Shown: piece after piece, positions 1 through 14,097 of the stretch | Layout of the letters: each line of letters begins with the position of its first letter | Numbering within the stretch: position 1 is the first letter of the stretch | Source: a virus | Reading direction: 5' to 3' (one strand) | DNA: 14,097 bases | Virus record (IMG/VR): IMGVR_UViG_3300045988_088018 | The notes under the pieces: generated by a model | Seen by the model: the letters and a program-made list of their open reading frames with translations, nothing else | The model's database searches: none | What the model was told of the DNA's origin: nothing | Position numbers and translations under genes: made by a program

Positions 1-271
1 AACTCTTAATAGAGTTGTGTCTACAAATCGAACAATTCCCCACTTTCAAACATTATTGTCTGACAACTATCATAATTTTAACACAATAAAATCAGTTAAA
101 GTTCATCAATTCAACTTCTAAATCAGTTATTGTTTCAAGTTTACATACAATTTAATAAATAATCTGAAAACTAATCGAACATACCATAAATTATCAGACA
201 GCTCTCAGTACTTGCTTTAAAGCGCTAAAGTGACACTGTGTAGACAATTTAGACACAATTCACTTTAGTGA
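1..271. repeat. Left inverted terminal repeat (ITR-L), presumed replication origin
   Basis: I compared 1-271 base by base with the reverse complement of 13827-14097. There are no indels and 6 mismatches (134, 185, 200, 225, 236, 243). Positions 1-133 are identical. Homology stops at 272. Confidence 0.95.
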
Positions 272-2466: not shown

Positions 2467-3126
2467 CTACCAAACACTAATTAAAAATCTTTGTCTAAAC
2501 TCATTCATGATATAATCAGAAAGATTGAATTTTACTACTTCTCGTTCTTCCCTAATCATCTGCTGAGTTGTCGTCGTTCCGATATTTCCGTGAATCCACC
2601 CGCTGTGCGTCCCGGTATTATTTCTGGTATTATCAACATTACTTTTATTTTTGAATTCACTTTCAGTCGTATTTGTATTATCACTTTTTGTATTCTGTTC
2701 GCTCGCGTCTCTGTCGCTCAACTCATCATCAAACGCGTGTACCTGTGTTTTCGAATTATCTTTAATAATACCGTCAAAAGTATTGGTACTTGTACTATCT
2801 CCTCCTGTTACCGTTTCGGTTATTTCTTTTCCTGAATCCGTGTCTGTCCAATCTTCTTGTCTATCATAGTTTTCAATAGCGTTGTATTTATATTGCGTTG
2901 TTTCTTCTAGTTTTTTCCAGTTAGGAAGTTGAATTCTACTCCACATCCCAATAGCATTTTTTAAAATTTCCGGCTGTGAGTACAGAATTTCAAGTTCTGC
3001 ATAATTTAAGCAAAGATTCTGTATAAAGTCTGTTTTATTAATTGACTCGGGTAATTGTAATTCGTCAAAAATAGAATTATCATAGTTATACATTCCTAGA
3101 ATTGACAATAGGTTTCCCCTCGACAT
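2467..3126 (-). CDS. Lower collar protein (gp11-position)
   Basis: It lies immediately downstream of the connector gene, as in phi29. The N-terminal pattern (LSILGMYNYDNSIFDELQLPESI...ILYSQPE...WSRIQLPNWKKL...YKYNAIENYDRQE) resembles collar proteins of small Gram-positive podophages as I remember them. I chose the start at ATG 3126 (MSRGNLL) with GGAGG 8 nt upstream. The ORF-track start at 3183 would overlap the connector gene by 98 nt. Confidence 0.5.
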   Translation of the reverse strand: MSRGNLLSILGMYNYDNSIFDELQLPESINKTDFIQNLCLNYAELEILYSQPEILKNAIGMWSRIQLPNWKKLEETTQYKYNAIENYDRQEDWTDTDSGKEITETVTGGDSTSTNTFDGIIKDNSKTQVHAFDDELSDRDASEQNTKSDNTNTTESEFKNKSNVDNTRNNTGTHSGWIHGNIGTTTTQQMIREEREVVKFNLSDYIMNEFRQRFLISVW

Positions 3127-4012
3127 TTGCGGCACCTCCTCTGCTTTCTTTAAATTTAAGTTTAAAACTGATATTAGTTCCAAACATTTTATTAACTCTT
3201 TTAGACGATTCTTTTAAGCTATCAGCTATCAATTTAATTTTAGTTTGCGTTTCAATGTTATTACTATTCACTTCATCATCTGTCAGTCGCTCTTTCTTTT
3301 CCGTGTTTGCGTTAGGAATACCAACGTCAGTATCAAACATTAATTTCAGTTTCTTCAAATCTTCAATTTGCTGACTTGCTATATAATTCTGTCGTAGATT
3401 CTGTGCGAAAGTATTCCACATCGGCGTACCATCTTCATTGAATAATTCTTTACCAGTAACCACACAAGCGTCGCCTGATGTAACTTTATCAATAGTTTTT
3501 TTAAATGTTTCGGCACTTGTTTTATCATCAACACCGATAACATAAGAAAGTTTTGAGTTAATAATATTAACGTCAATACCCTCAGATAACAGAGCCATTT
3601 TTTCTGCGTAAAATTGAATCAAGTCATAAATCCCGCCGAAATCAGGGAATAATTTTATTAATTCAGTATCGCGATGTATTCGCGCGTCAATCGCGTTGGG
3701 AATTAATGGATTGATAATTTGCGCTGTAGTTGGCTGATACATAACGTCAAAACCATATAAATTACAATGCTGTGGAATTACTCCAAATTTATCTGTGTTA
3801 ATAACGGCTAAAAATCCAAAATATACTAATGTATACATTGTATAATTATATGCCCATGTTTCCGGTAGTTTCACTTCCCACTGTCCGAGAAAATCATCAA
3901 TTAAATAGCGTTCAAAAAATTTAGTTAATGCTATGTTCTGCGAGTGAATTGTAGACGGATTTTTCTGTCCATTCACGGCATTAATATAGGTATAATCAAC
4001 AGGGATACCCAC
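3086..4012 (-). CDS. Head-tail connector / portal (upper collar), phi29 gp10-like
   Basis: GIPNANTEKKERLTDDEVNSNNIETQ matches the phi29 gp10 segment [26 protein letters not shown]. The length of about 308 aa is similar to gp10 (309 aa). The likely start is GTG 4012-4010, with GGGAGG 8 nt upstream and a TAGTG overlap with the upstream stop. The GTG at 4021 directly abuts the SD. Confidence 0.85.
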   Translation of the reverse strand: MGIPVDYTYINAVNGQKNPSTIHSQNIALTKFFERYLIDDFLGQWEVKLPETWAYNYTMYTLVYFGFLAVINTDKFGVIPQHCNLYGFDVMYQPTTAQIINPLIPNAIDARIHRDTELIKLFPDFGGIYDLIQFYAEKMALLSEGIDVNIINSKLSYVIGVDDKTSAETFKKTIDKVTSGDACVVTGKELFNEDGTPMWNTFAQNLRQNYIASQQIEDLKKLKLMFDTDVGIPNANTEKKERLTDDEVNSNNIETQTKIKLIADSLKESSKRVNKMFGTNISFKLKFKESRGGAANVEGKPIVNSRNV

Positions 4013-4653
4013 TATATACACCTCCCTAATTTAAACAATAACCATACCGGGATATTTAACCCAAGCGGCGGGCGGGGCGATGGTGGCGGAACAGGTTCGC
4101 CGCTCAGCACTCCCCACCAATAAAGCGCGCTACTTCTTCTAATTGGTTCAGTTTTTCTAGCATTTTCAGAGCTAGGGCGTTCATAATTATAAAGCCAAAC
4201 GCTTGCTAGGGTTTCCGGGTCTGTTTCTGATATTTTAAAATCTGCGTAACTCATCGGATATTTAGCTGTAGGATAATAGTCTGCCTTTGCATCAACAAAA
4301 ATCATCTGCGCGTATCCGTCACTAGGTAAACCAGTTTTATCACTAAAATTCGGTGCATAGCCTGTTGAATTAATTGCGAAAGGATCGTTAATATATTTTC
4401 CGCCGGGTGTAAACTGTGTGAATCCATATCCTTTATTACGCCACGGACTATCATTTTTTGATGGTACTCTATCAGATTGCCACCTCCATGGATTCATACC
4501 TCCCTCATGTGATACATTTCCAAGCAAGCCGCACACTGCATTTACAGTCCAGCCTAAACCGCCTAATACTTCATAGATTGATTTAGCATTTTCAATAGCT
4601 TCAAGACTGGTTTCTGAGTATGCCCCCGTCGGTTTAGCGTACCAATTACTCAT
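4012..4653 (-). CDS. Tail-associated peptidoglycan hydrolase (phage tail lysozyme, phi29 gp13 N-domain-like)
   Basis: The motifs LLGNVSHEGGMNPWRWQ and GYGFTQFTPG fit the phage tail lysozyme family signature (GNxxxESxxNP ... GxGxxQWT). It lies between the knob and connector genes. I chose the start at ATG 4653 (MSNWY), an ATGAGTAA overlap with the knob stop. The GTG at 4665 directly abuts the GGAGG. Confidence 0.65.
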   Translation of the reverse strand: MSNWYAKPTGAYSETSLEAIENAKSIYEVLGGLGWTVNAVCGLLGNVSHEGGMNPWRWQSDRVPSKNDSPWRNKGYGFTQFTPGGKYINDPFAINSTGYAPNFSDKTGLPSDGYAQMIFVDAKADYYPTAKYPMSYADFKISETDPETLASVWLYNYERPSSENARKTEPIRRSSALYWWGVLSGEPVPPPSPRPPLGLNIPVWLLFKLGRCI

Positions 4654-6055
4654 AATAAAAACCACCCTCCATATACGATTTTATCATTTTATTTTCGTAC
4701 GCCGTACCTGGTAGTGATACATCGGCATCTGCTACCATAATAAAGCCCGGAATTGTATTGATAACTTTTTCTTGACACAGCGGGCGTCCTCTGTGTTCTA
4801 ATGATTCAGCTACCAGCGGGAAAAACTGTGCTTGAAATCTCGGCTGAAAAGAAAAATCTGAAGTACTGCCAGTACTTCCAGAAGTTTGTAACTGCGGCTG
4901 TGATGCTTTGATACTTGATTCTATACCACTAGCAACGCTTGATATAATGCCGCCAACATTTCCAGTGGTAATCGCTTGCACTGTATTAACAGCCGACCCA
5001 ATCGCTGTACTTGCCATGCCTAAATAATCAACTGCCATCTGGGATAGCTGTAAAGGTACTGCACACATAGAATCAAGCCGTGTAATCACTGAATTTAACT
5101 GCTCGTCGGTTGATATTGTAAGAGTAGCTTTTCCGGTAATCATATCTACATGATATGATACATATAAAGTAGATTTTCCGTCTAAAAAAGTCGTATCAAT
5201 AGGCAATCCGCCCCAAGGTTTAAAATCGAGGCTGTATCTGGTATATGGTGCTAAATTAAGATAGTTGCCGCGTGTAGTGGCTTGCGGGTGTTTTGGAATT
5301 GTAATAGAATATGTTTTGTCAAAATCATAGTCAAGTAACTGGGTACACTGTACACCGTTCATTTCCCACCAACCGAATTTTAGATTTTCTACTAAAATTC
5401 CAGAACCCTTAAATTCAAACGGAAACCAGATACACGAAGTAATATATTGAAACGGGTTTATTAACGCTTTTTGTAATTCAACGGAAATTTCCCCGGCGTC
5501 GATATTTAACCAGTCAGCACTTGCCATAAGAGCGTTAGTTAATTTATTTAACTGCGATTTAGTAAAGTAATAGTAATTTACGCCACCCGAACCTTGAGAA
5601 TCAGAATTAATGATACCTAGAACATACGTTCCTTTGTTCCAAGACTGCGCCCAAGGGTTTTCTAAAAGTTGTGTATTTGTAGTAATTCCGGTAGTAGTTG
5701 GATATAAACTATCGACAATTCCGCCATCATACGTATGAGACGAACGCAAAATATACTGAGTTGATGCACCAATAAAACTTTTCCAACTAGCCAATACATC
5801 AATTTCGCAAGTAGCCCACCAAAGACCCTCATTCCACGTCCAATCACGAATAAAATAATGCCTACCATACAATCCGATTGATACATAATTATACATATAA
5901 ATATCTTGAGTTGTTTTAAAAGAGAGAACCGGGGAAATAACCCCGGAACTCTGTTTTAAATTACAAGCAAGCGTTATATTATCTTCGTTGTTATCCGGTA
6001 CTTTGGTTGAGTTTTCACGCTTATTAAATTTTCTTAAAACAACCGTAAAACTCAT
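4646..6055 (-). CDS. Tail knob / distal tail tube protein, phi29 gp9-like
   Basis: The N-terminal region NYVSIGLYGRHYFIRDWTWNEGLWWATCEIDVLASWKSF parallels phi29 gp9 [44 protein letters not shown] (shared EIDVLxxW). It lies directly after the capsid gene. AGGAGG is 6 nt before the ATG. Confidence 0.6.
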   Translation of the reverse strand: MSFTVVLRKFNKRENSTKVPDNNEDNITLACNLKQSSGVISPVLSFKTTQDIYMYNYVSIGLYGRHYFIRDWTWNEGLWWATCEIDVLASWKSFIGASTQYILRSSHTYDGGIVDSLYPTTTGITTNTQLLENPWAQSWNKGTYVLGIINSDSQGSGGVNYYYFTKSQLNKLTNALMASADWLNIDAGEISVELQKALINPFQYITSCIWFPFEFKGSGILVENLKFGWWEMNGVQCTQLLDYDFDKTYSITIPKHPQATTRGNYLNLAPYTRYSLDFKPWGGLPIDTTFLDGKSTLYVSYHVDMITGKATLTISTDEQLNSVITRLDSMCAVPLQLSQMAVDYLGMASTAIGSAVNTVQAITTGNVGGIISSVASGIESSIKASQPQLQTSGSTGSTSDFSFQPRFQAQFFPLVAESLEHRGRPLCQEKVINTIPGFIMVADADVSLPGTAYENKMIKSYMEGGFYYE

Positions 6056-6065
6056 TTATTACCTC

Positions 6066-7235
6066 CTAGTCTAAGAGTAATACAATACCATTTTCTGTTA
6101 CATCATTCCAATAACGCTGATTGAAACGATACCAGATATTTGTATATTCGCCAGCCGCGTTATATGGTGTCCGCTTAACACTTCTCCCTACTTCGGTAAT
6201 GCCGATAGCTTCTTCGTCAAAAATAACACCAAAAATATTATCGGTGCTTACCGCTTTTGGAGCGGATACTACAGCACCGTCTGCACCGATATAAGACGGT
6301 GTAACATTGATACTTCCCGGTGTTTTTGCCGACTGCCAGAAATTCACGTCCTCATGGTCGATTAATTTGTAATATCCATCGTTAAACGCATCTGTAAAAA
6401 TACTTGTTTTTGTTCTGTACTGTAACGGCGTATACATATATGCCTTCATTCTGTTATACGGAGTGTGTCGCTTAACAGCCTTTCCTGTGATATTCAGATG
6501 ATACATTTCAGTTCTTTCTGTAAGCATCGAACATAAATACTGAATTCGCGCGTATGCCCACTGAATAAATGGCTTGAAATTATCGGGATATAACACAGTA
6601 GCACTTGTTAATTTAGTACCCATCGCGGCATTGTATTCCGTAACCAGATGAATGACACTATCGTCAGCAATGTTAATTTTAGCCGCAATAAAGTTTGTAA
6701 GCGTTGCACGGTCAGCTGTTTCGCGCGCCTGTTCAAGTTTATCTGACATATTACCAAGCACCATAGACCAAAATCTTTCAAGTTCCTGCGGTGTTGTAAA
6801 AGCAACGTCTAGCTGTCGGTCAAAAATAGTTAAATAATCGCCGAAATAATCAATACCGTAAAAATTAGTCTGCAGAATTTCCGGCTTGCGAACAGTATAC
6901 TGGTCGACAGATTCGCCGTCGGTTAAATCCAGATATTTAGAATCAATCAAATCTTTGTCGATTGTCTGTAATTTTCGAATATGATTACCAAACTGCTGAT
7001 TTGTTTTTCTCAGTCCCTTGAACTTTGCTGTATACGGACGGTTTGAAAAAATCGTGTTGCTTAACACCTGTGAAATAGCACCCATTACCGGGTCGTATCC
7101 GGTTTTCAAAGTTGTCTGTGCCTGTGCAATAAAAGAACTAATATCAGTTGCCGCAATATTCGATTTTCCAGTAACCTGATTCTGCAATGTATTAAGTACG
7201 GTTGCCATTTTTGTTAAAGTCATGTCATTCGCCAT
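6066..7235 (-). CDS. Major capsid protein (phi29 gp8-like, HK97 fold expected)
   Basis: The position after a scaffold-like gene and the 389-aa size fit. The segment FDRQLDVAFTTPQELERFWSMVLGNMSDKLEQARE resembles phi29 gp8 [33 protein letters not shown], and the C-terminal W/Y-rich end is also similar. Translation is coupled to the upstream gene by a TAATG overlap. Confidence 0.65.
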   Translation of the reverse strand: MANDMTLTKMATVLNTLQNQVTGKSNIAATDISSFIAQAQTTLKTGYDPVMGAISQVLSNTIFSNRPYTAKFKGLRKTNQQFGNHIRKLQTIDKDLIDSKYLDLTDGESVDQYTVRKPEILQTNFYGIDYFGDYLTIFDRQLDVAFTTPQELERFWSMVLGNMSDKLEQARETADRATLTNFIAAKINIADDSVIHLVTEYNAAMGTKLTSATVLYPDNFKPFIQWAYARIQYLCSMLTERTEMYHLNITGKAVKRHTPYNRMKAYMYTPLQYRTKTSIFTDAFNDGYYKLIDHEDVNFWQSAKTPGSINVTPSYIGADGAVVSAPKAVSTDNIFGVIFDEEAIGITEVGRSVKRTPYNAAGEYTNIWYRFNQRYWNDVTENGIVLLLD

Positions 7236-7776: not shown

Positions 7777-8257
7777 AAATTTTTGACCTTTCGTATTCTA
7801 GTGTACAAATTTTATTTTTCTGATTGCCGCCAATTGCAAAAACAGTTTTTGACCCCGCTTTATTATCTAAGTAGGCAACTGCAACATGTTTCGAACTGGT
7901 TTCAACCATTTTGTTACCAGCCCATAAGAAAAATAAAATATCGTCTTTTTTAATGTCGATAGTTTTAAGTTGTTCCGCGTTGTAAAAAGTGCCTTTATTA
8001 GAATTTCTAAGTTTTACCATTAAAGAATAGACATTGTCTGACTTCACATCAGCCATACCTAACTTATTAATGATATATGATACTGTAGTGGCACACCAAC
8101 TTTCCTTAACATAAGAGCCGTAATACCATTTTTGGATAGTTCCAACTTTAGAATCCCACTCTACAGCTGGTTTCATTTTTTCCAATTCATCTGCGATAGA
8201 TTTTTTCGAACATGTTTCACGTGGAACATATTCGACTCCATCAATTGTTACTTTCAT
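7754..8257 (-). CDS. Endolysin, CHAP / NlpC-P60-like cysteine peptidase/amidase
   Basis: The catalytic-type motifs are ESWCATTVSY (Cys), SKHVAVAY (His) and AIGGNQ, in the order and spacing typical of CHAP/TIGR02594-like cell wall hydrolases. It lies directly after a holin-like gene. AAGGAG is 10 nt upstream. Confidence 0.65.
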   Translation of the reverse strand: MKVTIDGVEYVPRETCSKKSIADELEKMKPAVEWDSKVGTIQKWYYGSYVKESWCATTVSYIINKLGMADVKSDNVYSLMVKLRNSNKGTFYNAEQLKTIDIKKDDILFFLWAGNKMVETSSKHVAVAYLDNKAGSKTVFAIGGNQKNKICTLEYERSKIYGMFRFA

Positions 8258-8450
8258 TCTCTTTCATCTCCTTTAACATAAGAGATAATTCATTGAGTGC
8301 CTGCGTATTATTATTAATTGCTTCTGTAAACAATTTTGTTTCATCTTTATGACTATTCATTTCCCGATACCACAAATAAAACAATGCAATGCATAACGCT
8401 ACTGGAACCCCTGTGTTATTAATAAACTGCGTGATACTTGCTAAATCCAA
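8241..8450 (-). CDS. Holin-like protein (BhlA/UviB-like: one N-terminal TM helix plus a charged coiled C-terminus)
   Basis: A 69-aa protein with a single hydrophobic segment (GVPVALCIALFYLWY) followed by a K/E-rich tail, immediately upstream of the endolysin. It has a TTG start (8450-8448) with GGAGGTGG 6 nt upstream. Confidence 0.55.
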   Translation of the reverse strand: MDLASITQFINNTGVPVALCIALFYLWYREMNSHKDETKLFTEAINNNTQALNELSLMLKEMKENESNN

Positions 8451-8476
8451 GCTACCACCTCCATTCTCCGCCCTTA

Positions 8477-8560
8477 TAATGGGAGATACTCCGGCGCGTC
8501 CCCGCGCGACTCACGCTTTCCGAGCGTTGGATATTGAGCCGCTTCGTATATCTCCCACTA
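8477..8560 (-). ncRNA. GC-rich structured RNA element (three-way-junction fold) of unknown class; candidate small RNA or 5' leader of the late operon
   Basis: Minus-strand fold: P1 is 8560-8548 with 8489-8477 (core GGGAGAUA/UAUCUCCC). P2 is 8540-8536 with 8512-8508 (GGCUC/GAGUC). The inner hairpin ACGCU-CGGAA-AGCGU is at 8527-8513. The P3 hairpin GCGCG-GGGA-CGCGC is at 8507-8494. By my count 35 of 50 bases are G/C at 8481-8530, in an AT-rich genome. There is no credible ORF here. Confidence 0.45.
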
Positions 8561-8565
8561 ACAAC

Positions 8566-8594
8566 ATGATAGCACTTTCTAAATATTCTGTCAA
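8566..8594 (-). promoter_or_regulatory. Sigma-A-type promoter (late/lysis-structural operon or small RNA)
   Basis: Minus strand: TTGACA (8594-8589), a 17-nt spacer, then the extended -10 TGcTATCAT (8574-8566). It starts 6 nt after the ATPase stop codon. Confidence 0.65.
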
Positions 8595-8600
8595 GTCTGA

Positions 8601-9644
8601 TTATTCAAAATATTTTGACAATAAAACTTCACATAAATATTCTTCGAAATCAATTTTATTTCTAAGATACGCCAGCCACACATAAGCGAAGTCACGCTTA
8701 AAGCGGACTAACGATATTTCACTTGGCTTGTATTCGGGGCAAGTGCCCGCTGTATGCGTACTAGCATAGTATCGTCCATTAGATTTGTGTTTGTATATAG
8801 TGAGTTCCCCGACATGGACGATTGGACGATATTCTTTTAATGATTTTGGCTTGGCTTGAAAATACTGCGAATCCAAAAATACATTGCCAAGTGCCATCTT
8901 ATTATATTCGTCATTTCCACCGACTTTGTATAATGCGGTGTTCTTTTTCATTTCAGCAATCGGCGATGATTGTGGAATAATTAAACAAATACCGCGCTCT
9001 TTATTAATGTAGTATTCCTGCTTGCTCTCAACCATTTTCATAGCTTTTGAAATAAGACCGAACTCCATAAACATAGGGTTAGCCATTCTATCACTATTGG
9101 CACAGCAAACCATCTGAAAAGATTTTTCCCCTTTTAATTCCCTATTTCGGTTAATAGTTTCAAACGCATTTCTAAAAGCGAATCCCTCTTCTTTAATTTT
9201 TATATCGTGAGGCTCTGGAATGAATTCGTCATATAGACCTATTCTGTAACCTTGTCCAGAAAATCCTCTTAAATTTTTAATGGTTGATAATGCCATGCAT
9301 AACGCTAAAACTCCGCCATCTTTGCAAAGTTTCCCGTTCTCATTCGTGTATGATTCATTAATGGTATATGACGATGTTTTCTTAATTGGAAAAAAATTAT
9401 AACTTTTATCAAAATCCGAATTAATAGGAATAAGCGGATTGTATTCTTTAGTGCAGCAAGCATCTAACTGCGTTTGTAATCGTCTCATATAAATAAATGG
9501 CTGTGGGTTGTCAATTAACAAATCTTTTAGTGTGCCGTATGTCTTACCGCTACCTCGTGTGTCTACTACAAAAGTAAACGGCAATCCCCATGATATGATT
9601 CTAGGCATATCAACCCAGCCATCCTTGTTATAGATATTCAGCAT
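8601..9644 (-). CDS. DNA packaging (encapsidation) ATPase, phi29 gp16-like
   Basis: Walker A is VVDTRGSGKTYG (phi29: GARGIGKSYA) at the same N-terminal distance. Walker B is IGLYDEF (phi29: IVFDEF). The 347-aa size compares with 332 aa for gp16. Confidence 0.85.
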   Translation of the reverse strand: MLNIYNKDGWVDMPRIISWGLPFTFVVDTRGSGKTYGTLKDLLIDNPQPFIYMRRLQTQLDACCTKEYNPLIPINSDFDKSYNFFPIKKTSSYTINESYTNENGKLCKDGGVLALCMALSTIKNLRGFSGQGYRIGLYDEFIPEPHDIKIKEEGFAFRNAFETINRNRELKGEKSFQMVCCANSDRMANPMFMEFGLISKAMKMVESKQEYYINKERGICLIIPQSSPIAEMKKNTALYKVGGNDEYNKMALGNVFLDSQYFQAKPKSLKEYRPIVHVGELTIYKHKSNGRYYASTHTAGTCPEYKPSEISLVRFKRDFAYVWLAYLRNKIDFEEYLCEVLLSKYFE

Positions 9645-9672
9645 AATAAAATAAGCGGGGCATTCGCCCCGC
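9645..9672 (-). terminator. Terminator-like GC hairpin plus U-tract, immediately upstream of the ATPase ATG
   Basis: Minus strand: GCGGGGC-GAAU-GCCCCGC (9672-9655), then UUAUUUUAUU (9654-9645), then AUG at 9644. Confidence 0.6.
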
Positions 9673-9693
9673 CGTTCCTCCTTTCTAGGATAA

Positions 9694-10277: not shown

Positions 10278-10306
10278 ATTATAATTCATTTCATCTAAAA
10301 TGTCAA
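10278..10306 (-). promoter_or_regulatory. Perfect consensus sigma-A promoter (middle operon: SSB-like gene, ORF, ATPase)
   Basis: Minus strand: TTGACA (10306-10301), a 17-nt spacer, TATAAT (10283-10278). It sits in the 77-nt gap between the polymerase stop and the next ATG. Confidence 0.75.
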
Positions 10307-10311
10307 TAGAT

Positions 10312-12369
10312 TTATGATAAATCAGCTAGTAAATTTTTATATTCATCTGTCAAACTCATATTATAAGTTGTCGGTCTTAATGTAACATTGGAAGTTATTT
10401 CTATATCGTGATTTTCAATTCTAATTCGTTTTGTAACAGGATTGTCACTGTACACCGTTTCAAGTCTCCCCGCATCTCGAAATACGAACCCATCACGAAA
10501 GGCAGTAATGCCGCCGCGTGAATCAATTTCCTCGCCGCCCTTTTTCTTCTGTACGCCTGAAACTGTAATATGTGTTTCTGGTTTGCCTTTTTCTGTATAA
10601 GCATATCGTTTCGCCCCCAATGTTATGAAATTGTCGTAGTATCCGTCATTTTCATAAATTTCCATAAAATGAGTTATACCGAATTTATCTCTAGCAAAAG
10701 CACCGGATTCTATTGACTGCCTCATTTTACGATTATTATATTCTGTAAAGTCAACTTCCGTTATAAATTTATTACTATCAGTATCGCCATAAATCCAAGC
10801 ATCTGGATTCAGCCATATTCCTTCATGTAATTCATAACGTGCGTTTGCAGTAGTCCAAACTCCCCATTGATACGGTAAAAACGCTTTTTCATTGTATGCA
10901 TCTAAAAGTTTGTTTTCCGCTTCTTCTCGTTCTATAAAACCAGTTCCATAGATATAATCTATGGACTGTTTAACTGGGTCTTGTGCTGACATTCCATAAA
11001 TGCTGTTCAACAAGTTTTTATTTTTATTATAATATATTTCTTGCCCATCTACATTCTTAAGCTCTGTTTTATTTTTATAATACATTTTATTTAATTCAAT
11101 AAGAGGCTTCGGAAGTTTACCGTATTTTGATACATACGCATCATAAAAATCTACTTCATCAAAATCATACTCCCGAATCAAAATTTTAAAATCAATATCG
11201 GTTAAAGTCGTTTCTGTGTAGTCAGCGTATAAGATGCGCCCGTTATCATAAACGCCTTTTTGCGTTGCTCTACATTTCGAACGTGATAAATAGGGGTTGG
11301 GAAACCCGTCTTTGATTCTCACGTTGTATATAGTACAGCGAAAAACCATTGCGCGATTATTTTGTAAGTATTTATAAAATTCTTTCGGTTCGATTTCGCC
11401 CTTATATTTAAATGGTTCAACCGGATATAAACCATTACACTGTACGCCGGGATAACTACTAGAACGATCTTTACTAAACACACCCTGCAGAAGTTTACCC
11501 ACAAAAAATCGGCTTGCGTGTGTATCGCCGCCTCTGAATGCTTCGCGAAGAAGTTTGTATAGTTCGTAGTTTGGCATAAGTGATTTAAGCCATGCTTTAT
11601 TTACACTTCGCATTGCCTGTTTAGCATCACGCCTAACATAGCCAGTAGAAGTTAATGGAATAGTGTATAATGTGTCCATATCGCGTTTTAACTCTGCTTC
11701 GATAATTTCTACTGTTGCTAACACATCATTCACACAATATCGTAATTCATATTCAGTTAAAGGTGTCCACGGAAAACGCAACTTGTTATAATCAAATAAT
11801 TTACCAGATAGTTTGCCATGCTCTACATTAAATTTATTAGAAGCGACTGCTAAACTCATGTTTGTTTGTAAATACGCGTCTCTAAATTCCAGTTTATCAT
11901 CAAACATAGAGCATTTTAATATTTTACGTGATTTTACAGCAAATACTTCTTCCGGTTTAAAATGATATATTCCAGATAAAAACTGAAATTCATATGATAA
12001 ATTCCAGACATAAATTACTATAGTTTCTTCACTTTCTAGCTGACTTGTAATGTATTTACACATAGCAAGAAATTCTTTCCAAGTTCTCCCTGTTATAACT
12101 GTATGAGTACCTATAGCAAACTGCCAATGATACATGATACTAGCTTCTTCTTTTTTAGCTATTAATTCCCCCGTTTCTTTATTCTTTTCATATTTTTCTA
12201 TTGGCATAAATGGAGTAATGCACGTTGTTTCAATATCAAAAGCTGTAACAACATTTTTATATTTTCGCAATTTCTTTTTTGTTCTGTTATTTCCACGTGG
12301 GCGATTTAACAGAGTAATATTTGTAATTATATCCGGCTTTATATTATTCATGTTATACAACTTATACAA
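10312..12369 (-). CDS. Protein-primed family-B DNA polymerase (phi29 gp2-like)
   Basis: Exo I is FDIETT. Exo II is WNLSYEFQF. Exo III is YCVNDVLA. Motif A is DRSSSYPG (DxxSxYP). Motif B is KNLLNSIYG (Kx3NSxYG). Tx2AR is TTANAR. Motif C is YGDTDS. KxY is GAKRYAY. The start is uncertain: TTG at 12369 has GGAG 8 nt upstream, while the first ATG is at 12351. Confidence 0.92.
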   Translation of the reverse strand: MYKLYNMNNIKPDIITNITLLNRPRGNNRTKKKLRKYKNVVTAFDIETTCITPFMPIEKYEKNKETGELIAKKEEASIMYHWQFAIGTHTVITGRTWKEFLAMCKYITSQLESEETIVIYVWNLSYEFQFLSGIYHFKPEEVFAVKSRKILKCSMFDDKLEFRDAYLQTNMSLAVASNKFNVEHGKLSGKLFDYNKLRFPWTPLTEYELRYCVNDVLATVEIIEAELKRDMDTLYTIPLTSTGYVRRDAKQAMRSVNKAWLKSLMPNYELYKLLREAFRGGDTHASRFFVGKLLQGVFSKDRSSSYPGVQCNGLYPVEPFKYKGEIEPKEFYKYLQNNRAMVFRCTIYNVRIKDGFPNPYLSRSKCRATQKGVYDNGRILYADYTETTLTDIDFKILIREYDFDEVDFYDAYVSKYGKLPKPLIELNKMYYKNKTELKNVDGQEIYYNKNKNLLNSIYGMSAQDPVKQSIDYIYGTGFIEREEAENKLLDAYNEKAFLPYQWGVWTTANARYELHEGIWLNPDAWIYGDTDSNKFITEVDFTEYNNRKMRQSIESGAFARDKFGITHFMEIYENDGYYDNFITLGAKRYAYTEKGKPETHITVSGVQKKKGGEEIDSRGGITAFRDGFVFRDAGRLETVYSDNPVTKRIRIENHDIEITSNVTLRPTTYNMSLTDEYKNLLADLS

Positions 12370-13826: not shown

Positions 13827-14097
13827 TCACTAAAGTGAATTGTGTCTAAATTGTTTACACACTGTCACTTTACCGCTTTAAAGCAAGTACTGAGAGCAGT
13901 CTGATAATTTATAGTATGTTCGATTAGTTTTCAGATTATTTATTAAATTGTATGTAAACTTGAGACAATAACTGATTTAGAAGTTGAATTGATGAACTTT
14001 AACTGATTTTATTGTGTTAAAATTATGATAGTTGTCAGACAATAATGTTTGAAAGTGGGGAATTGTTCGATTTGTAGACACAACTCTATTAAGAGTT
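13827..14097. repeat. Right inverted terminal repeat (ITR-R), presumed replication origin
   Basis: It is the reverse complement of 1-271 with 6 substitutions, and the outer 133 bp are identical. Confidence 0.95.

What the first reader, a model, noticed from the sequence alone, without database searches (positions are those of the whole stretch)
8451..8600. Promoter-driven, GC-rich three-way-junction RNA between the packaging ATPase and the lysis/late operon
This 150-nt interval between the ATPase stop (8601) and the holin-like TTG start (8450) is the only long non-coding stretch inside the genome. Its composition is strikingly different from the rest: 35 of 50 bases are G/C at 8481-8530, in an AT-rich phage. 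On the minus strand it opens with TTGACA-17 nt-TGcTATCAT. The RNA starting a few nt later can form a long closing helix, with core GGGAGAUA (8556-8549) paired to UAUCUCCC (8488-8481), extendable to 13 pairs. That helix encloses two further arms. One is GGCUC/GAGUC, carrying an 8-nt bulge (AAUAUCCA) and an ACGCU-CGGAA-AGCGU hairpin. The other is a GCGCG-GGGA-CGCGC hairpin with a GNRA-type loop, directly abutting the first arm. Hypothesis A is a packaging-RNA (pRNA) analogue. phi29-type motors need a 3WJ pRNA, no other candidate is visible in this genome, and this element sits beside the ATPase gene. The GGGA loop and the UCC in the bulge could give only about 3 intermolecular pairs, which is weak. 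Hypothesis B is a regulatory leader or riboswitch-like element for the late operon. The 3' strand of P1 (UCUCC) is also complementary to GGAGA at 8469-8465 and to the holin SD GGAGG (8462-8458), so P1 formation could control SD access. There are arguments against pRNA. No terminator follows the element. At about 84 nt it is shorter than phi29 pRNA. The connector N-terminus lacks the basic RKR segment that contacts pRNA in phi29.
Basis: partly seen in the sequence, partly recalled or inferred. Interest (0 to 1): 0.8.

Follow-up and report, generated by a model that had tools for sequence, protein, structure and literature searches.

The report
New pRNA-shaped small phage RNA
The GC-rich gap after the packaging ATPase gene encodes a real, strongly conserved folded RNA found in hundreds of tiny phi29-like gut phages; it has the same layout as the phi29 packaging RNA but is much smaller and unrelated in sequence, so it may be the long-missing packaging RNA of these phages.

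Summary
Window 8477-8560 (- strand) folds into the described three-way junction (z = -3.7) just after a near-consensus promoter.

It belongs to an undescribed RNA family. A covariance model or structure descriptor finds it in about 175 of 249 related small phi29-like phage contigs, with no Rfam match. Every helix covaries: 95-97% of cells are paired against 30-44% in slid controls. The bulge and the D-loop are Watson-Crick complementary in 98% of 93 distinct combinations, including the window's UCC/GGA.

The helix order matches the phi29 pRNA prohead-binding domain. However, the RNA is 65-85 nt, the Rfam pRNA model does not match it, it has no long A-helix, and the connector lacks phi29's basic N-terminus.

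The RNA persists in three genome layouts:
- between the ATPase and holin genes (the window);
- with the promoter and holin, far from the ATPase;
- as a promoter-RNA-terminator unit with no downstream gene.

It therefore has a self-contained function.

Best reading: a miniature pRNA-like packaging RNA (about 0.45). Rivals are another trans role or a cis-acting late-operon leader.

About half the lineages also carry a covarying segment next to the holin ribosome-binding site that can capture hairpin E. This is unexplained.

The parts
8589..8594 (-). -35 hexamer TTGACA of the promoter that drives the RNA
   Evidence: TTGACA followed by a -10 box 16-18 nt later is conserved upstream of the element in nearly all relatives.
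8566..8574 (-). Extended -10 box TG-c-TATCAT. The predicted transcription start is about 8558-8560.
   Evidence: In relatives the -10 ends 2-10 nt (mode 5-8) before the first P1 pair, so the RNA 5' end coincides with the start of P1. The start site is inferred, not measured.
8549..8560 (-). P1 5' strand. The core is GGGAGAUA 8556-8549, extendable with UAGU 8560-8557.
   Evidence: MFE fold. The P1 columns covary in the family, 9 of 9 pairs with changes on both sides.
8541..8548 (-). Junction J12 (UACGAAGC). It is unusually long; most relatives have 0-1 nt here.
   Evidence: This insertion is why covariance model R1 does not align the window full-length.
8536..8540 (-). P2 5' strand GGCUC.
   Evidence: Two compensatory pair changes relative to the L004 haplotype. 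Family P2 is 100% paired and 4 of 4 pairs covary.
8528..8535 (-). Bulge AAUAUCCA, the counterpart of the pRNA CE / right-hand loop. UCC 8531-8529 is complementary to the D-loop GGA.
   Evidence: Bulge/D-loop complementarity: 98% of 93 distinct combinations have at least 3 contiguous WC pairs, against 36% when cross-paired. All 14 tetraloop variants pair loop nt 2-4. Helix 3 supports the same contact. The same AUAUCC/GGGA pair occurs in Amedibacillus phage AD70P2 and in L183-L194.
8513..8527 (-). Hairpin E: ACGCU 8527-8523, loop CGGAA 8522-8518, AGCGU 8517-8513.
   Evidence: Two compensatory pairs relative to L004. The family E stem is 99.6-100% paired. The YNGAA loop is nearly invariant.
8508..8512 (-). 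P2 3' strand GAGUC.
8494..8507 (-). Hairpin D: GCGCG 8507-8503, loop GGGA 8502-8499, CGCGC 8498-8494. It is the counterpart of the pRNA D / left-hand loop.
   Evidence: The family D stem is 99.5-100% paired and 4 of 4 pairs covary. For the loop contact.
8489..8493 (-). Junction J31 (CGGAG).
   Evidence: Most relatives have A-N-G-A(A) here, so the window deviates.
8477..8488 (-). P1 3' strand. The core is UAUCUCCC 8488-8481, extendable with AUUA 8480-8477.
8469..8473 (-). 'Anti-E' segment GGGCG. It is complementary to CGCUC 8526-8522, which is the E 5' strand plus the first loop base. It lies 6 nt upstream of the SD.
   Evidence: It changes to GGGUGU in the L004 haplotype, matching ACACCC there. 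An equivalent covarying segment is significant in 11 of 22 distinct E types, against 2 of 22 for a reversed-query control.
8448..8462 (-). SD GGAGG 8462-8458 and TTG start 8450-8448 of the holin-like first late gene (ORF 8241-8450).
   Evidence: Weak PHROG holin hit, E = 1.9e-4. The homologous start codon is ATG in relatives.

Best explanation
Window 8477-8560 (- strand) is this phage's copy of a previously undescribed small structured RNA. The RNA is shared by a large clade of 11-15 kb phi29-like, protein-primed podoviruses from gut and rumen metagenomes.

A strong sigma-A/sigma70-type promoter starts transcription at the first base pairs of helix P1. The RNA folds into a three-way junction.
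- P1 is the closing helix.
- P2 carries a 7-8 nt 5' bulge and is capped by hairpin E, which has an almost invariant YNGAA loop.
- D is a second hairpin whose loop pairs by Watson-Crick pairs with the P2 bulge (UCC with GGA in the window).

Shown here: the structure, its conservation, the promoter arrangement, and the fact that the RNA is kept whatever its neighbours are.

Inferred: the RNA works as a self-contained molecule, and its most likely job is that of a miniature packaging RNA. In that role it would sit at the portal vertex of the prohead, possibly oligomerising through the bulge/D-loop pairs, and help dock the gp16-type ATPase.

In the window's genome layout it would be made as the 5'-terminal domain of the late (holin-first) transcript. 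It would then act either still attached or after cleavage in the AU-rich spacer. The segment GGGCG upstream of the holin SD can capture hairpin E and probably couples the two functions.
For: Structure and chance
- Fold z = -3.66.
- The descriptor is unique in the window, with 2 hits in 5000 shuffles of the region.
- There are four compensatory pairs within the window's own clade.

Family
- Covariance model R1 hits 63 of 80 IMG/VR loci, 64 of 84 searched sources in the metagenome set (the 80 metagenome loci plus L084, L087, L094 and L095), and 23 of 80 loci of a more distant clade. All hits but two (L087, L095, whose loci were not oriented by the ATPase match) are on the ATPase strand.
- The descriptor hits 175 of 249 loci.
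- 95.3% and 97.1% of cells are paired, against 30-44% in slid controls. 24 of 26 and 21 of 21 pairs show changes on both sides.
- The bulge/D-loop contact covaries.

Phage type
- The ATPase belongs to PF05894, the gp16-type family.
- The connector is homologous to phi29 gp10, E = 1e-14.
- There is a type-B DNA polymerase and 271-nt terminal inverted repeats.

Autonomy: three layouts
- Type A (window): ATPase, then promoter-RNA, then holin.
- Type B (L084, L155/L077): promoter-RNA-holin far from the ATPase.
- Type C (L257-259): promoter-RNA-intrinsic terminator facing the end of a convergent gene. It is the only copy in the genome. The 66 nt are 100% identical in three genomes whose flanks differ, and the late operon there has a different leader.

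Other points
- The motif is phage-restricted. A scan of 185,579 species genomes gave only one real hit, a 13-kb phage-like contig.
- No other pRNA candidate exists. RF00044 finds the phi29 pRNA at 145 bits but nothing in the window or its relatives.
- The literature states that pRNA is known only from Bacillus phages (PMC11476376, PMC5066667, PMC12670572). The last of these uses '3-nt pairing of right/left-hand loops plus a 3WJ' as criteria, and this RNA meets both.
Against: - Sequence and profile: there is no similarity to phi29-type pRNA, and R1 finds nothing in phi29.
- Size: the RNA is 65-85 nt against 117-120 nt. P1 is 7-17 bp, without the bulged long A-helix that docks gp16 in phi29.
- Connector: the N-terminus lacks the RKR/QRQKRNR basic cluster that binds pRNA in phi29.
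- Context: in 169 of 172 elements the RNA is directly followed, 20-40 nt later, by the RBS of the first late gene with no terminator. The stand-alone case is a single lineage.
L089 has no D hairpin, and its bulge pairs 8 bp with the junction strand. Other variants use tetraloops with only 3 pairs.
- The covarying anti-E segment next to the SD points to some cis role.
- No experiment of any kind is available.
Confidence: 0.45

Rival explanations
1. Cis-acting leader of the late operon. The folded domain at the very 5' end of the late mRNA controls translation initiation and/or stability of the holin-first late transcript. Hairpin E toggles between its own stem and the anti-E segment just upstream of the SD. 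A trans factor that recognises the folded domain or the YNGAA loop may shift this equilibrium.
For: - In 169 of 172 elements an SD and start codon follow 20-40 nt after P1 with no terminator.
- In two independent rearrangements the RNA moved together with the promoter and the holin gene, away from the ATPase.
- The anti-E segment covaries with the E 5' strand plus loop in 11 of 22 E types and lies 3-12 nt upstream of the SD. In the window this is GGGCG/CGCUC, with a compensatory change in L004.
- P1 begins at the predicted 5' end. This is the known requirement for 5' stabilisers in Gram-positive bacteria (established knowledge, not tested here).
Against: - In the L257-259 lineage the RNA is kept 100% identical with its own promoter, an immediate terminator and no downstream cistron. 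The late operon there uses a different leader.
- The anti-E segment is absent in about half of the E types.
- P1-3':SD complementarity is no better than in shuffles.
- In nested folding models the SD is similarly accessible with or without the core enforced.
- A three-way junction plus a covarying tertiary contact is far more than a stabiliser needs.
Confidence: 0.2
2. A self-contained trans-acting RNA with a role other than packaging. Examples are a cofactor or decoy that binds a phage or host protein through the YNGAA hairpin, an assembly chaperone, or a regulatory or anti-defence RNA.
For: - The evidence for autonomy is the same as for the best explanation.
- The E loop is nearly invariant while all helices drift, which is typical of a protein-recognition hairpin.
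- The connector lacks the phi29 pRNA-binding residues.
Against: - Near-universal presence across ATPase divergence down to about 30% identity argues for a core function rather than an accessory one.
- The exact coincidence of topology with pRNA, in phages that carry the phi29-type motor, would be a coincidence under this reading.
- No complementary target was seen in the late leader of the stand-alone lineage.
Confidence: 0.2
3. A small-molecule riboswitch or a self-cleaving ribozyme placed in the late leader.
For: - The architecture is a compact three-way junction with a loop-bulge pseudoknot, as in several riboswitch aptamers and small ribozymes (own knowledge).
- Junction purines are conserved in the main clade: J23 A(A/C) and J31 A-N-G-A.
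Against: - No Rfam family matches, even at E up to 10.
- The motif is absent from 185,579 bacterial and archaeal species genomes except for one phage-like contig.
- The junction sequences are not conserved across clades. The window and AD70P2 have different J12, J23 and J31, so there is no conserved pocket or catalytic core.
Confidence: 0.05
4. A processive antitermination RNA, like HK022 put or the EAR element. It would modify the RNA polymerase that transcribes it so that the long late operon is read through.
For: It lies directly after a strong promoter at the start of a roughly 8-kb operon. It carries a conserved hairpin with a purine-rich pentaloop reminiscent of boxB (own knowledge).
Against: - In the L257-259 lineage it is followed immediately by an intrinsic terminator at the end of the transcription unit. 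This is the opposite of what an antiterminator would be kept for.
- No convincing intergenic terminators occur inside the window's late operon. The hairpin 5946-5929 lies inside an ORF.
Confidence: 0.03
5. A chance GC-rich inverted-repeat cluster, or a purely DNA-level element such as an operator or origin, with no RNA function.
For: None beyond the moderate z-score of the loose 120-nt cut.
Against: - Covariation is found in every helix, including G-U pairs that would be A-C on the other strand.
- Covariance-model hits are strand-specific, for example 82 against 15 bits for L095.
- The fold has z = -3.66.
Confidence: 0.01

Closest known systems
phi29-type prohead/packaging RNA (pRNA; Rfam RF00044)
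   Same: - It is encoded by a protein-primed podovirus with a gp16-type ATPase and a gp10-type connector.
- It is driven by its own strong promoter, and its 5' and 3' ends pair in the closing helix.
- It is a three-way junction with the same order of elements: closing helix; second helix with a 5' bulge; capping hairpin E; third hairpin D.
- The bulge and the D-loop are Watson-Crick complementary (3-5 nt) and covary while the sequences drift.
   Different: - There is no sequence or profile similarity.
- It is 65-85 nt instead of 117-174 nt.
- The closing helix is 7-17 bp and perfect, not about 25 bp with CCA and other bulges.
- The E loop is nearly invariant (YNGAA).
- It is usually the 5' end of the late mRNA rather than a separate early transcript at the genome end.
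- The connector lacks the basic N-terminus.
- Whether the loop pairing is intermolecular is unknown.
Pseudoknotted three-way-junction aptamers in 5' leaders, such as THF-I-type and purine-type riboswitches (comparison from own knowledge)
   Same: It has a compact three-way junction with a long-range loop-bulge or loop-loop contact. It sits in a 5' UTR close to an RBS. An alternative pairing involves part of the folded domain.
   Different: - It is phage-restricted.
- There is no conserved junction pocket across clades.
- The alternative pairing captures an internal hairpin (E), not the P1 3' strand.
- The RNA is kept without any downstream gene in one lineage.
5'-terminal stabiliser stem-loops of Gram-positive and phage mRNAs, such as SP82, ermC and aprE leaders (own knowledge)
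   Same: A stable helix begins within a few nucleotides of the transcript 5' end, in front of a long operon.
   Different: It is much more elaborate, with a three-way junction, a covarying tertiary contact and an invariant loop. In the stand-alone lineage the late operon uses a simple hairpin leader instead, while the RNA is kept elsewhere.
HK022 put RNA and lambda boxB-type leader hairpins (own knowledge)
   Same: A promoter-proximal structured RNA. It carries a GC stem with a purine-rich pentaloop.
   Different: The architecture is different. In one lineage it is followed directly by a terminator. No antitermination target is evident.

Membership tests
phi29-type pRNA (Rfam RF00044) | Scores against the RF00044 covariance model | tested here: not met
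   There is no hit in the window even at E up to 10. There are none in 20 related loci at the gathering score, nor in L084/L085. The same search finds the phi29 pRNA at 145 bits.
phi29-type pRNA (Rfam RF00044) | Encoded by a phage with a gp16-type packaging ATPase and a gp10-type connector | tested here: met
   The ATPase matches PF05894 and phrog_2150. The connector matches phrog_2038 and is 24% identical to phi29 gp10, E = 1e-14.
phi29-type pRNA (Rfam RF00044) | Three-way junction in the order A helix, C helix with 5' CE bulge, E hairpin, C' strand, D hairpin, A' strand | tested here: met
   MFE folds. The family consensus has covariation in all four helices.
phi29-type pRNA (Rfam RF00044) | Right-hand (CE) and left-hand (D) loops complementary by at least 3 nt, and covarying | tested here: met
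   In the window, UCC 8531-8529 pairs with GGA 8501-8499. In the family, 98% of 93 combinations have at least 3 contiguous WC pairs, against 36% when cross-paired. Helix 3 agrees. The criterion is taken from PMC12670572.
phi29-type pRNA (Rfam RF00044) | The loop-loop pairing is intermolecular and builds a ring on the connector | not testable with these tools
   Covariation cannot tell cis from trans. The L089 variant (bulge pairs with the junction strand, no D hairpin) hints at cis.
phi29-type pRNA (Rfam RF00044) | Long bulged A helix (about 25 bp, with a CCA bulge) that docks the ATPase, in a domain of about 117-120 nt | tested here: not met
   P1 is 7-17 bp (mode 10) and perfect. The whole element is 65-85 nt.
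phi29-type pRNA (Rfam RF00044) | A discrete small transcript with its own promoter and terminator | tested here: inconclusive
   A promoter is present everywhere. There is no terminator in the window or in 169 of 172 elements. A full promoter-RNA-terminator unit exists in L257-259.
phi29-type pRNA (Rfam RF00044) | Basic N-terminal segment of the connector (RKR) that binds the RNA | tested here: not met
   The alignment to phi29 gp10 starts at residue 10. The window has YTYINAVNGQK where phi29 has YRSINEIQRQKRNR, and there is no RKR.
phi29-type pRNA (Rfam RF00044) | Binds proheads and is required for DNA packaging | not testable with these tools
   This needs experiments. A cultured phage carrying the element exists (OP172638).
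New family defined here (model R1, three-way-junction RNA behind the late promoter) | Full-length match to covariance model R1 | tested here: not met
   For the window, only hairpin E aligns locally (E = 5-9). The cause is the 8-nt J12 insertion and a deviant J31. The nearest non-identical relative, L094 (ATPase 54% identical), scores 38.9 bits, E = 4e-8.
New family defined here (model R1, three-way-junction RNA behind the late promoter) | Same helix order, 6-10 nt bulge, YNGAA loop on E, and D hairpin (structure descriptor) | tested here: met
   There is a single hit in the window, at 8560-8477 (-). The false-positive rate is 5 per 1.69 Mb of shuffled sequence and 2 per 5000 shuffles of the region.
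New family defined here (model R1, three-way-junction RNA behind the late promoter) | Consensus promoter whose -10 ends a few nt before P1; position after the ATPase and/or before the holin-like gene | tested here: met
New family defined here (model R1, three-way-junction RNA behind the late promoter) | Bulge complementary to the D-loop | tested here: met
   The window has UCC/GGA. The identical AUAUCC/GGGA pair occurs in AD70P2 and L183-L194, and other tetraloop variants covary.
Translational riboswitch or leader | An alternative pairing that sequesters or frees the SD | tested here: inconclusive
   P1-3':SD pairing is no better than in shuffles. The E/anti-E pairing is significant in 11 of 22 E types, but it lies upstream of the SD rather than on it. 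SD accessibility is unchanged in nested folding models.
Translational riboswitch or leader | Always coupled to a downstream cistron | tested here: not met
   L257-259 have an immediate terminator, a convergent gene end and no ORF on that strand.
Intrinsic terminator or attenuator | A stem directly followed by a U-tract | tested here: not met
   The window has AUUAUAAG after P1. In the family the mean is 3.4 U in the first 8 nt, and only 21 of 107 have at least 5 U.

The most novel reading that the evidence does not exclude
The RNA is a dual-function miniature pRNA. As the 5' domain of the late mRNA it binds assembling proheads and the packaging motor through hairpin E and the bulge/D-loop contact. 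While unbound, hairpin E is captured by the anti-E segment next to the holin RBS. Holin translation, and hence lysis timing, would then be coupled to the state of prohead assembly or packaging. This would be the smallest known packaging RNA and the first link between a packaging motor component and lysis control.
Probability: 0.1. Interest if true: 0.95.

Novelty: new variant of a known kind. Interest (0 to 1): 0.82.

Why it matters
pRNA is the only RNA known to be an essential part of a viral DNA-packaging motor. Reviews and a 2025 Infernal survey describe it only from Bacillus phages (PMC11476376, PMC5066667, PMC12670572). It has long been open whether the many other phages with a phi29-type ATPase also need an RNA.

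This work defines a covariation-supported RNA family in hundreds of small gut and rumen phi29-like phages.
- It has the pRNA layout at about half the size.
- It is kept whatever its gene neighbours are.
- It is present in a cultured phage, Amedibacillus phage AD70P2, so the question becomes directly testable.

If it is a packaging RNA, it redefines the minimal pRNA and offers a new, very small self-assembling RNA scaffold. If it is not, it is still a new, abundant, phage-specific structured RNA with two independent covarying long-range contacts and an unknown partner for its invariant loop.

Tried and rejected
- DNA searches: nucleotide searches of the whole window and of the element against GenBank phages found nothing useful.
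- Rfam: searches of the whole window, the element alone, 20 relatives and a canonical member found no family.
- tRNA/tmRNA: none found.
- Model R1: it does not align the window full-length. I therefore used a structure descriptor with shuffled controls.
- Alignment: MAFFT could not align the divergent variants (L085, L088) well enough for a second, broader model, so no second model was built.
- Distant loci: a locus search with an alignment of very distant ATPases failed for lack of conserved stretches. A single-protein search with the AD70P2 ATPase found only an identical contig. A protein search plus a new alignment solved this.
- 'P1 plus U-tract acts as a terminator': rejected as a general feature.
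- Bacterial riboswitch class: rejected. The genome scan gave one phage-like contig and one chance match inside an Omnitrophota ORF.
- CsrA-type GGA-loop site: considered and rejected, because loop variants CUGAA, CAGAA, UCGAA and GUGACA lack GGA.
- Distant phages: no credible instance was found in phi29, phiCPV4, Eggerthella phage LE1-1 or a Clostridium innocuum phage.
- Papers: searches found no description of this RNA.
Full report
**What the window is**

The 14,097-bp window is a complete linear genome with 271-nt inverted terminal repeats. All genes lie on the minus strand. In transcription order they are:
- small early ORFs;
- a type-B DNA polymerase (10312-12369);
- an SSB-like protein;
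- a gp16-type packaging ATPase (8601-9644; PF05894, phrog_2150);
- a holin-like gene (8241-8450) and an endolysin;
- the major head protein;
- the upper collar/connector (3086-4021), the lower collar and the tail.

It is therefore a very small phi29-like, protein-primed podovirus. No close relative exists among GenBank phages at the DNA level. By protein similarity the nearest records are unannotated human-faecal phage contigs and the cultured Amedibacillus phages AD70P2/P3.

**Checking the observation**

Every coordinate and sequence in the finding is correct.
- The promoter TTGACA-17-TGcTATCAT (8594-8566) is the second-best sigma70-type match in the genome.
- The 150-nt gap is the longest internal non-coding stretch.
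- The exact element 8477-8560 folds into the proposed three-way junction at -36.9 kcal/mol. This is z = -3.66, and none of 200 dinucleotide shuffles folds as well. A looser 120-nt cut gave only z = -1.83.
- Rfam 15 has no match, including the pRNA model RF00044. The same model finds the phi29 pRNA at 145 bits.

**Relatives**

The ATPase has about 945 homologues, mostly on 11-14 kb contigs. I fetched 80 loci from IMG/VR, 80 from metagenomes and 80 of a more distant clade around AD70P2. I also fetched several complete records.

Directly downstream of the ATPase stop, most loci show the same architecture as the window, with entirely different helix sequences:
- P1, the closing helix;
- P2 (4-6 bp) with a 7-8 nt 5' bulge that usually begins AA;
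- hairpin E with a C(G/U/A)GAA loop;
- the P2 3' strand;
- hairpin D;
- a purine-rich junction;
- the P1 3' strand.

I built a covariance model from 22 sequences.
- It hits 63 of the first 80 loci.
- It hits 64 of the 84 sources searched in the metagenome set, that is the 80 metagenome loci plus L084, L087, L094 and L095.
- It hits 23 of the distant 80.
- All hits but two (L087, L095, loci not oriented by the ATPase match) are on the ATPase strand.
- A relaxed structure descriptor finds the motif in 175 of 249 loci.

**Covariation**

On the model-fitted alignments, 95.3% and 97.1% of cells are standard pairs, against 30-44% when partners are slid by 1-3 columns. 24 of 26 and 21 of 21 pairs show changes on both sides. 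The covariation scores are 0.88 and 1.01, against 0.07-0.14 in the slid controls.

These alignments lean towards the model's structure. The second set, however, is independent of the seed, and the slid controls keep relatedness.

G-U pairs and strand-specific scores (82 against 15 bits for L095) fix the functional strand as the gene strand.

**The bulge/D-loop contact**

The P2 bulge and the D-loop are complementary, and the pairing covaries. Examples are GGUCA/UGACC, GACCA/UGGUC, GCACA/UGUGC, UUGCA/UGCAA and AUGCA/UGCAU. The descriptor does not require this contact.

| Contiguous Watson-Crick pairs | Own bulge and loop (93 distinct combinations) | Cross-paired bulges and loops |
|---|---|---|
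| at least 3 | 98% | 36% |
| at least 4 | 75% | 9% |
| at least 5 | 40% | 2% |

All 14 variants with a four-base D-loop pair loop positions 2-4 with the bulge: GGA/UCC, GAA/UUC, GCG/CGC, GAG/CUC, GGU/ACC, CCG/CGG, GCC/GGC, UGC/GCA and GCA/UGC.

The same AUAUCC/GGGA combination occurs in AD70P2 and its clade.

**Is the window's element a member?**

Model R1 aligns only hairpin E of the window. The window clade has an 8-nt insertion between P1 and P2 and a deviant D-to-P1 junction.

Membership rests on five points.
- Position and promoter arrangement are identical.
- The descriptor hit is unique, with a false-positive rate of 2 in 5000 shuffles of the region.
- The E loop is conserved and the bulge begins with AA.
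- There is a continuum of relatives. L094 (ATPase 54% identical) scores 38.9 bits.
- There are compensatory changes within the clade itself. The only other haplotype (five contigs) differs by eight substitutions that form four compensatory pairs in P2 and E.

**Promoter**

TTGACA, 16-18 nt, then TATAAT is conserved upstream of almost every element. The -35 box often lies inside the last codons of the ATPase gene. The -10 box ends 2-10 nt (mode 5-8) before the first P1 pair. The transcript therefore starts at P1. The start site is inferred, not measured.

**Genomic context: the key argument**

Three layouts exist.

*Type A* is the window and most loci: ATPase, then promoter-RNA, then an SD and the start of a small holin-like gene 20-40 nt after P1, with no terminator.

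*Type B* arose in two independent rearrangements. In the 14-kb record MT835998 (L084) the ATPase is on the other strand, 8 kb away. The element (E = 4.5e-9) sits with its promoter in front of the holin-like first gene of the late operon. In L155/L077 a bidirectional terminator and two opposite-strand genes separate the ATPase from promoter-RNA-holin.

*Type C* is one lineage, L257-L259.
- Early genes and the ATPase are on one strand and the late operon is on the other.
- The element follows the ATPase with its own promoter.
- An intrinsic terminator follows within 5-10 nt, with a different hairpin in each of the three genomes. Then comes the end of the convergent tail gene, so there is no downstream cistron.
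- It is the only copy in the genome.
- Its 66 nt are identical in three genomes whose upstream coding sequence has many substitutions and whose downstream sequence is unrelated.
- The late operon there has a different, simple hairpin leader.

An RNA needed only as a late-operon leader should have been lost in type C. An RNA needed only as an ATPase 3' element should have been lost in type B. Keeping it in all three layouts indicates a self-contained function.

The caveat is that type C is a single lineage among 172 elements.

**Phage restriction**

A 21-specified-base pattern scanned over one genome for each of 185,579 species gave two hits.
- One is a 13.2-kb phage-like contig binned with a gut Clostridiales MAG. 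It scores 82 bits against R1.
- The other is a chance match inside an ORF.

This argues against a bacterial riboswitch class.

**Comparison with pRNA**

The order of elements matches domain I of the phi29 pRNA: A helix, C helix, CE bulge, E hairpin, D hairpin, with covarying CE/D complementarity. This layout comes from PMC5066667 and my own knowledge of pRNA. The criteria used by PMC12670572 (a 3WJ and a 3-nt left/right-hand pairing) are met.

Against membership:
- there is no profile similarity in either direction;
- the RNA is 65-85 nt;
- P1 is only 7-17 bp, without bulges;
- the connector is homologous to gp10 but lacks the basic N-terminal residues that bind pRNA in phi29;
- most copies have no terminator.

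Two observations suggest the contact could be an intramolecular pseudoknot. One variant (L089) has no D hairpin, and its bulge pairs 8 bp with the junction strand. In other variants a 5-bp kissing contact is replaced by a 3-bp tetraloop contact. Sequence alone cannot decide between cis and trans.

**A second long-range pairing (unexplained)**

In 11 of 22 distinct E types, which include most sequences, a 5-9 nt segment 3-12 nt upstream of the SD is complementary to the E 5' strand plus loop and covaries with it. A reversed-query control gave 2 of 22.

In the window this is GGGCG 8473-8469 with CGCUC 8526-8522. In the sister haplotype it changes compensatorily to GGGUGU/ACACCC.

This pairing excludes the E stem, which itself covaries. 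Relative to P1 and P2 it is a pseudoknot. It is absent in the stand-alone lineage.

This suggests that, where the RNA is the leader of the holin gene, its state is coupled to that gene's ribosome-binding region. I could not test how.

**Verdict**

The element is real and belongs to a new, abundant, phage-specific structured RNA family.

| Reading | Probability |
|---|---|
| Miniature pRNA-like component of the packaging machinery, made here as the 5' end of the late transcript | about 0.45 |
| Another trans-acting role | 0.2 |
| A cis-acting late-leader role as the core function | 0.2 |
| Riboswitch or ribozyme | 0.05 |
| Antitermination | 0.03 |
| Chance | 0.01 |

The remainder covers readings not listed here, such as a bare 5' stabiliser. 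No description of this RNA was found in the searchable literature.

Noticed in passing
window 8469-8473 with 8522-8526; also L032, L052, L025, L053, L041, L084, L086: A segment just upstream of the holin SD is complementary to the 5' strand plus loop of hairpin E and covaries with it. This holds in about half of the distinct E types. The pairing is mutually exclusive with the E stem and is a pseudoknot relative to P1/P2.
   Followed up: partly
L257 5403-5471 (+) and flanks; L258, L259 (= L233, L231, L234): In one lineage the RNA is a stand-alone unit: its own promoter, a 66-nt element identical in three genomes, an immediate intrinsic terminator (a different hairpin in each genome), then the end of a convergent gene. 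The late operon on the other strand starts with a different, simple hairpin leader.
   Followed up: yes
L089 (MT835901) 6028-6100 (+): This variant has no D hairpin. The 10-nt bulge contains AAAAGGAA, which can pair 8 bp with UUCCUUUU in the strand joining P2 to P1. This suggests an intramolecular pseudoknot.
   Followed up: partly
L085 = OP172638 (Amedibacillus phage AD70P2) 6404-6475 (-); L183-L194: A cultured phage and its clade carry the element with the same bulge AUAUCCAA and D-loop GGGA as the window, although the ATPases are only about 30% identical. In L183-L194 the E loop is a GGAA tetraloop.
   Followed up: partly
L201, L209, L210 (about 60-130 nt after the ATPase stop); L232: There are further variants. 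In L201/L209/L210 the E loop is GUGACA instead of YNGAA. L232 has an extra hairpin inserted between P1 and P2, giving a four-way junction. The bulge/D-loop complementarity is kept.
   Followed up: no
window 1-271 and 13827-14097: 271-nt inverted terminal repeats, 98% complementary. The window is a complete linear genome of a protein-primed phage.
   Followed up: yes
window 9654-9673 (-): A strong intrinsic terminator (GGCGGGGC-GAAT-GCCCCGCT plus a U-rich tail) lies 10 nt upstream of the ATPase start codon. The ATPase would have to be expressed by read-through or from an unrecognised promoter.
   Followed up: no
window 8589-8625 (-): The ATPase ends ...TTGTCAAAATATTTTGAATAA. A near-duplicate, TTGACAGAATATTT, follows the stop codon and supplies the -35 box. 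In most relatives the -35 TTGACA lies inside the last ATPase codons (L-T-K-Y).
   Followed up: partly
family-wide (P1); window 8549-8560 / 8477-8488: P1 is strongly strand-asymmetric. The 5' strand is 73% purine and the 3' strand 27%, but the 3' strand is not specifically complementary to the SD.
   Followed up: yes
window 5929-5946 (-): A GC-rich hairpin followed by a U-rich run lies 110 nt inside ORF 4646-6055, just after the major head protein gene. It may be an internal attenuator, or the ORF start may be miscalled.
   Followed up: partly
window 8448-8450 (-): The holin-like gene starts with TTG in the window but with ATG at the homologous position in the sister haplotype.
   Followed up: yes
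window 10278-10306 (-): This is the only perfect TTGACA-17-TATAAT promoter of the genome. It lies in the 77-nt gap in front of the SSB-like gene.
   Followed up: no
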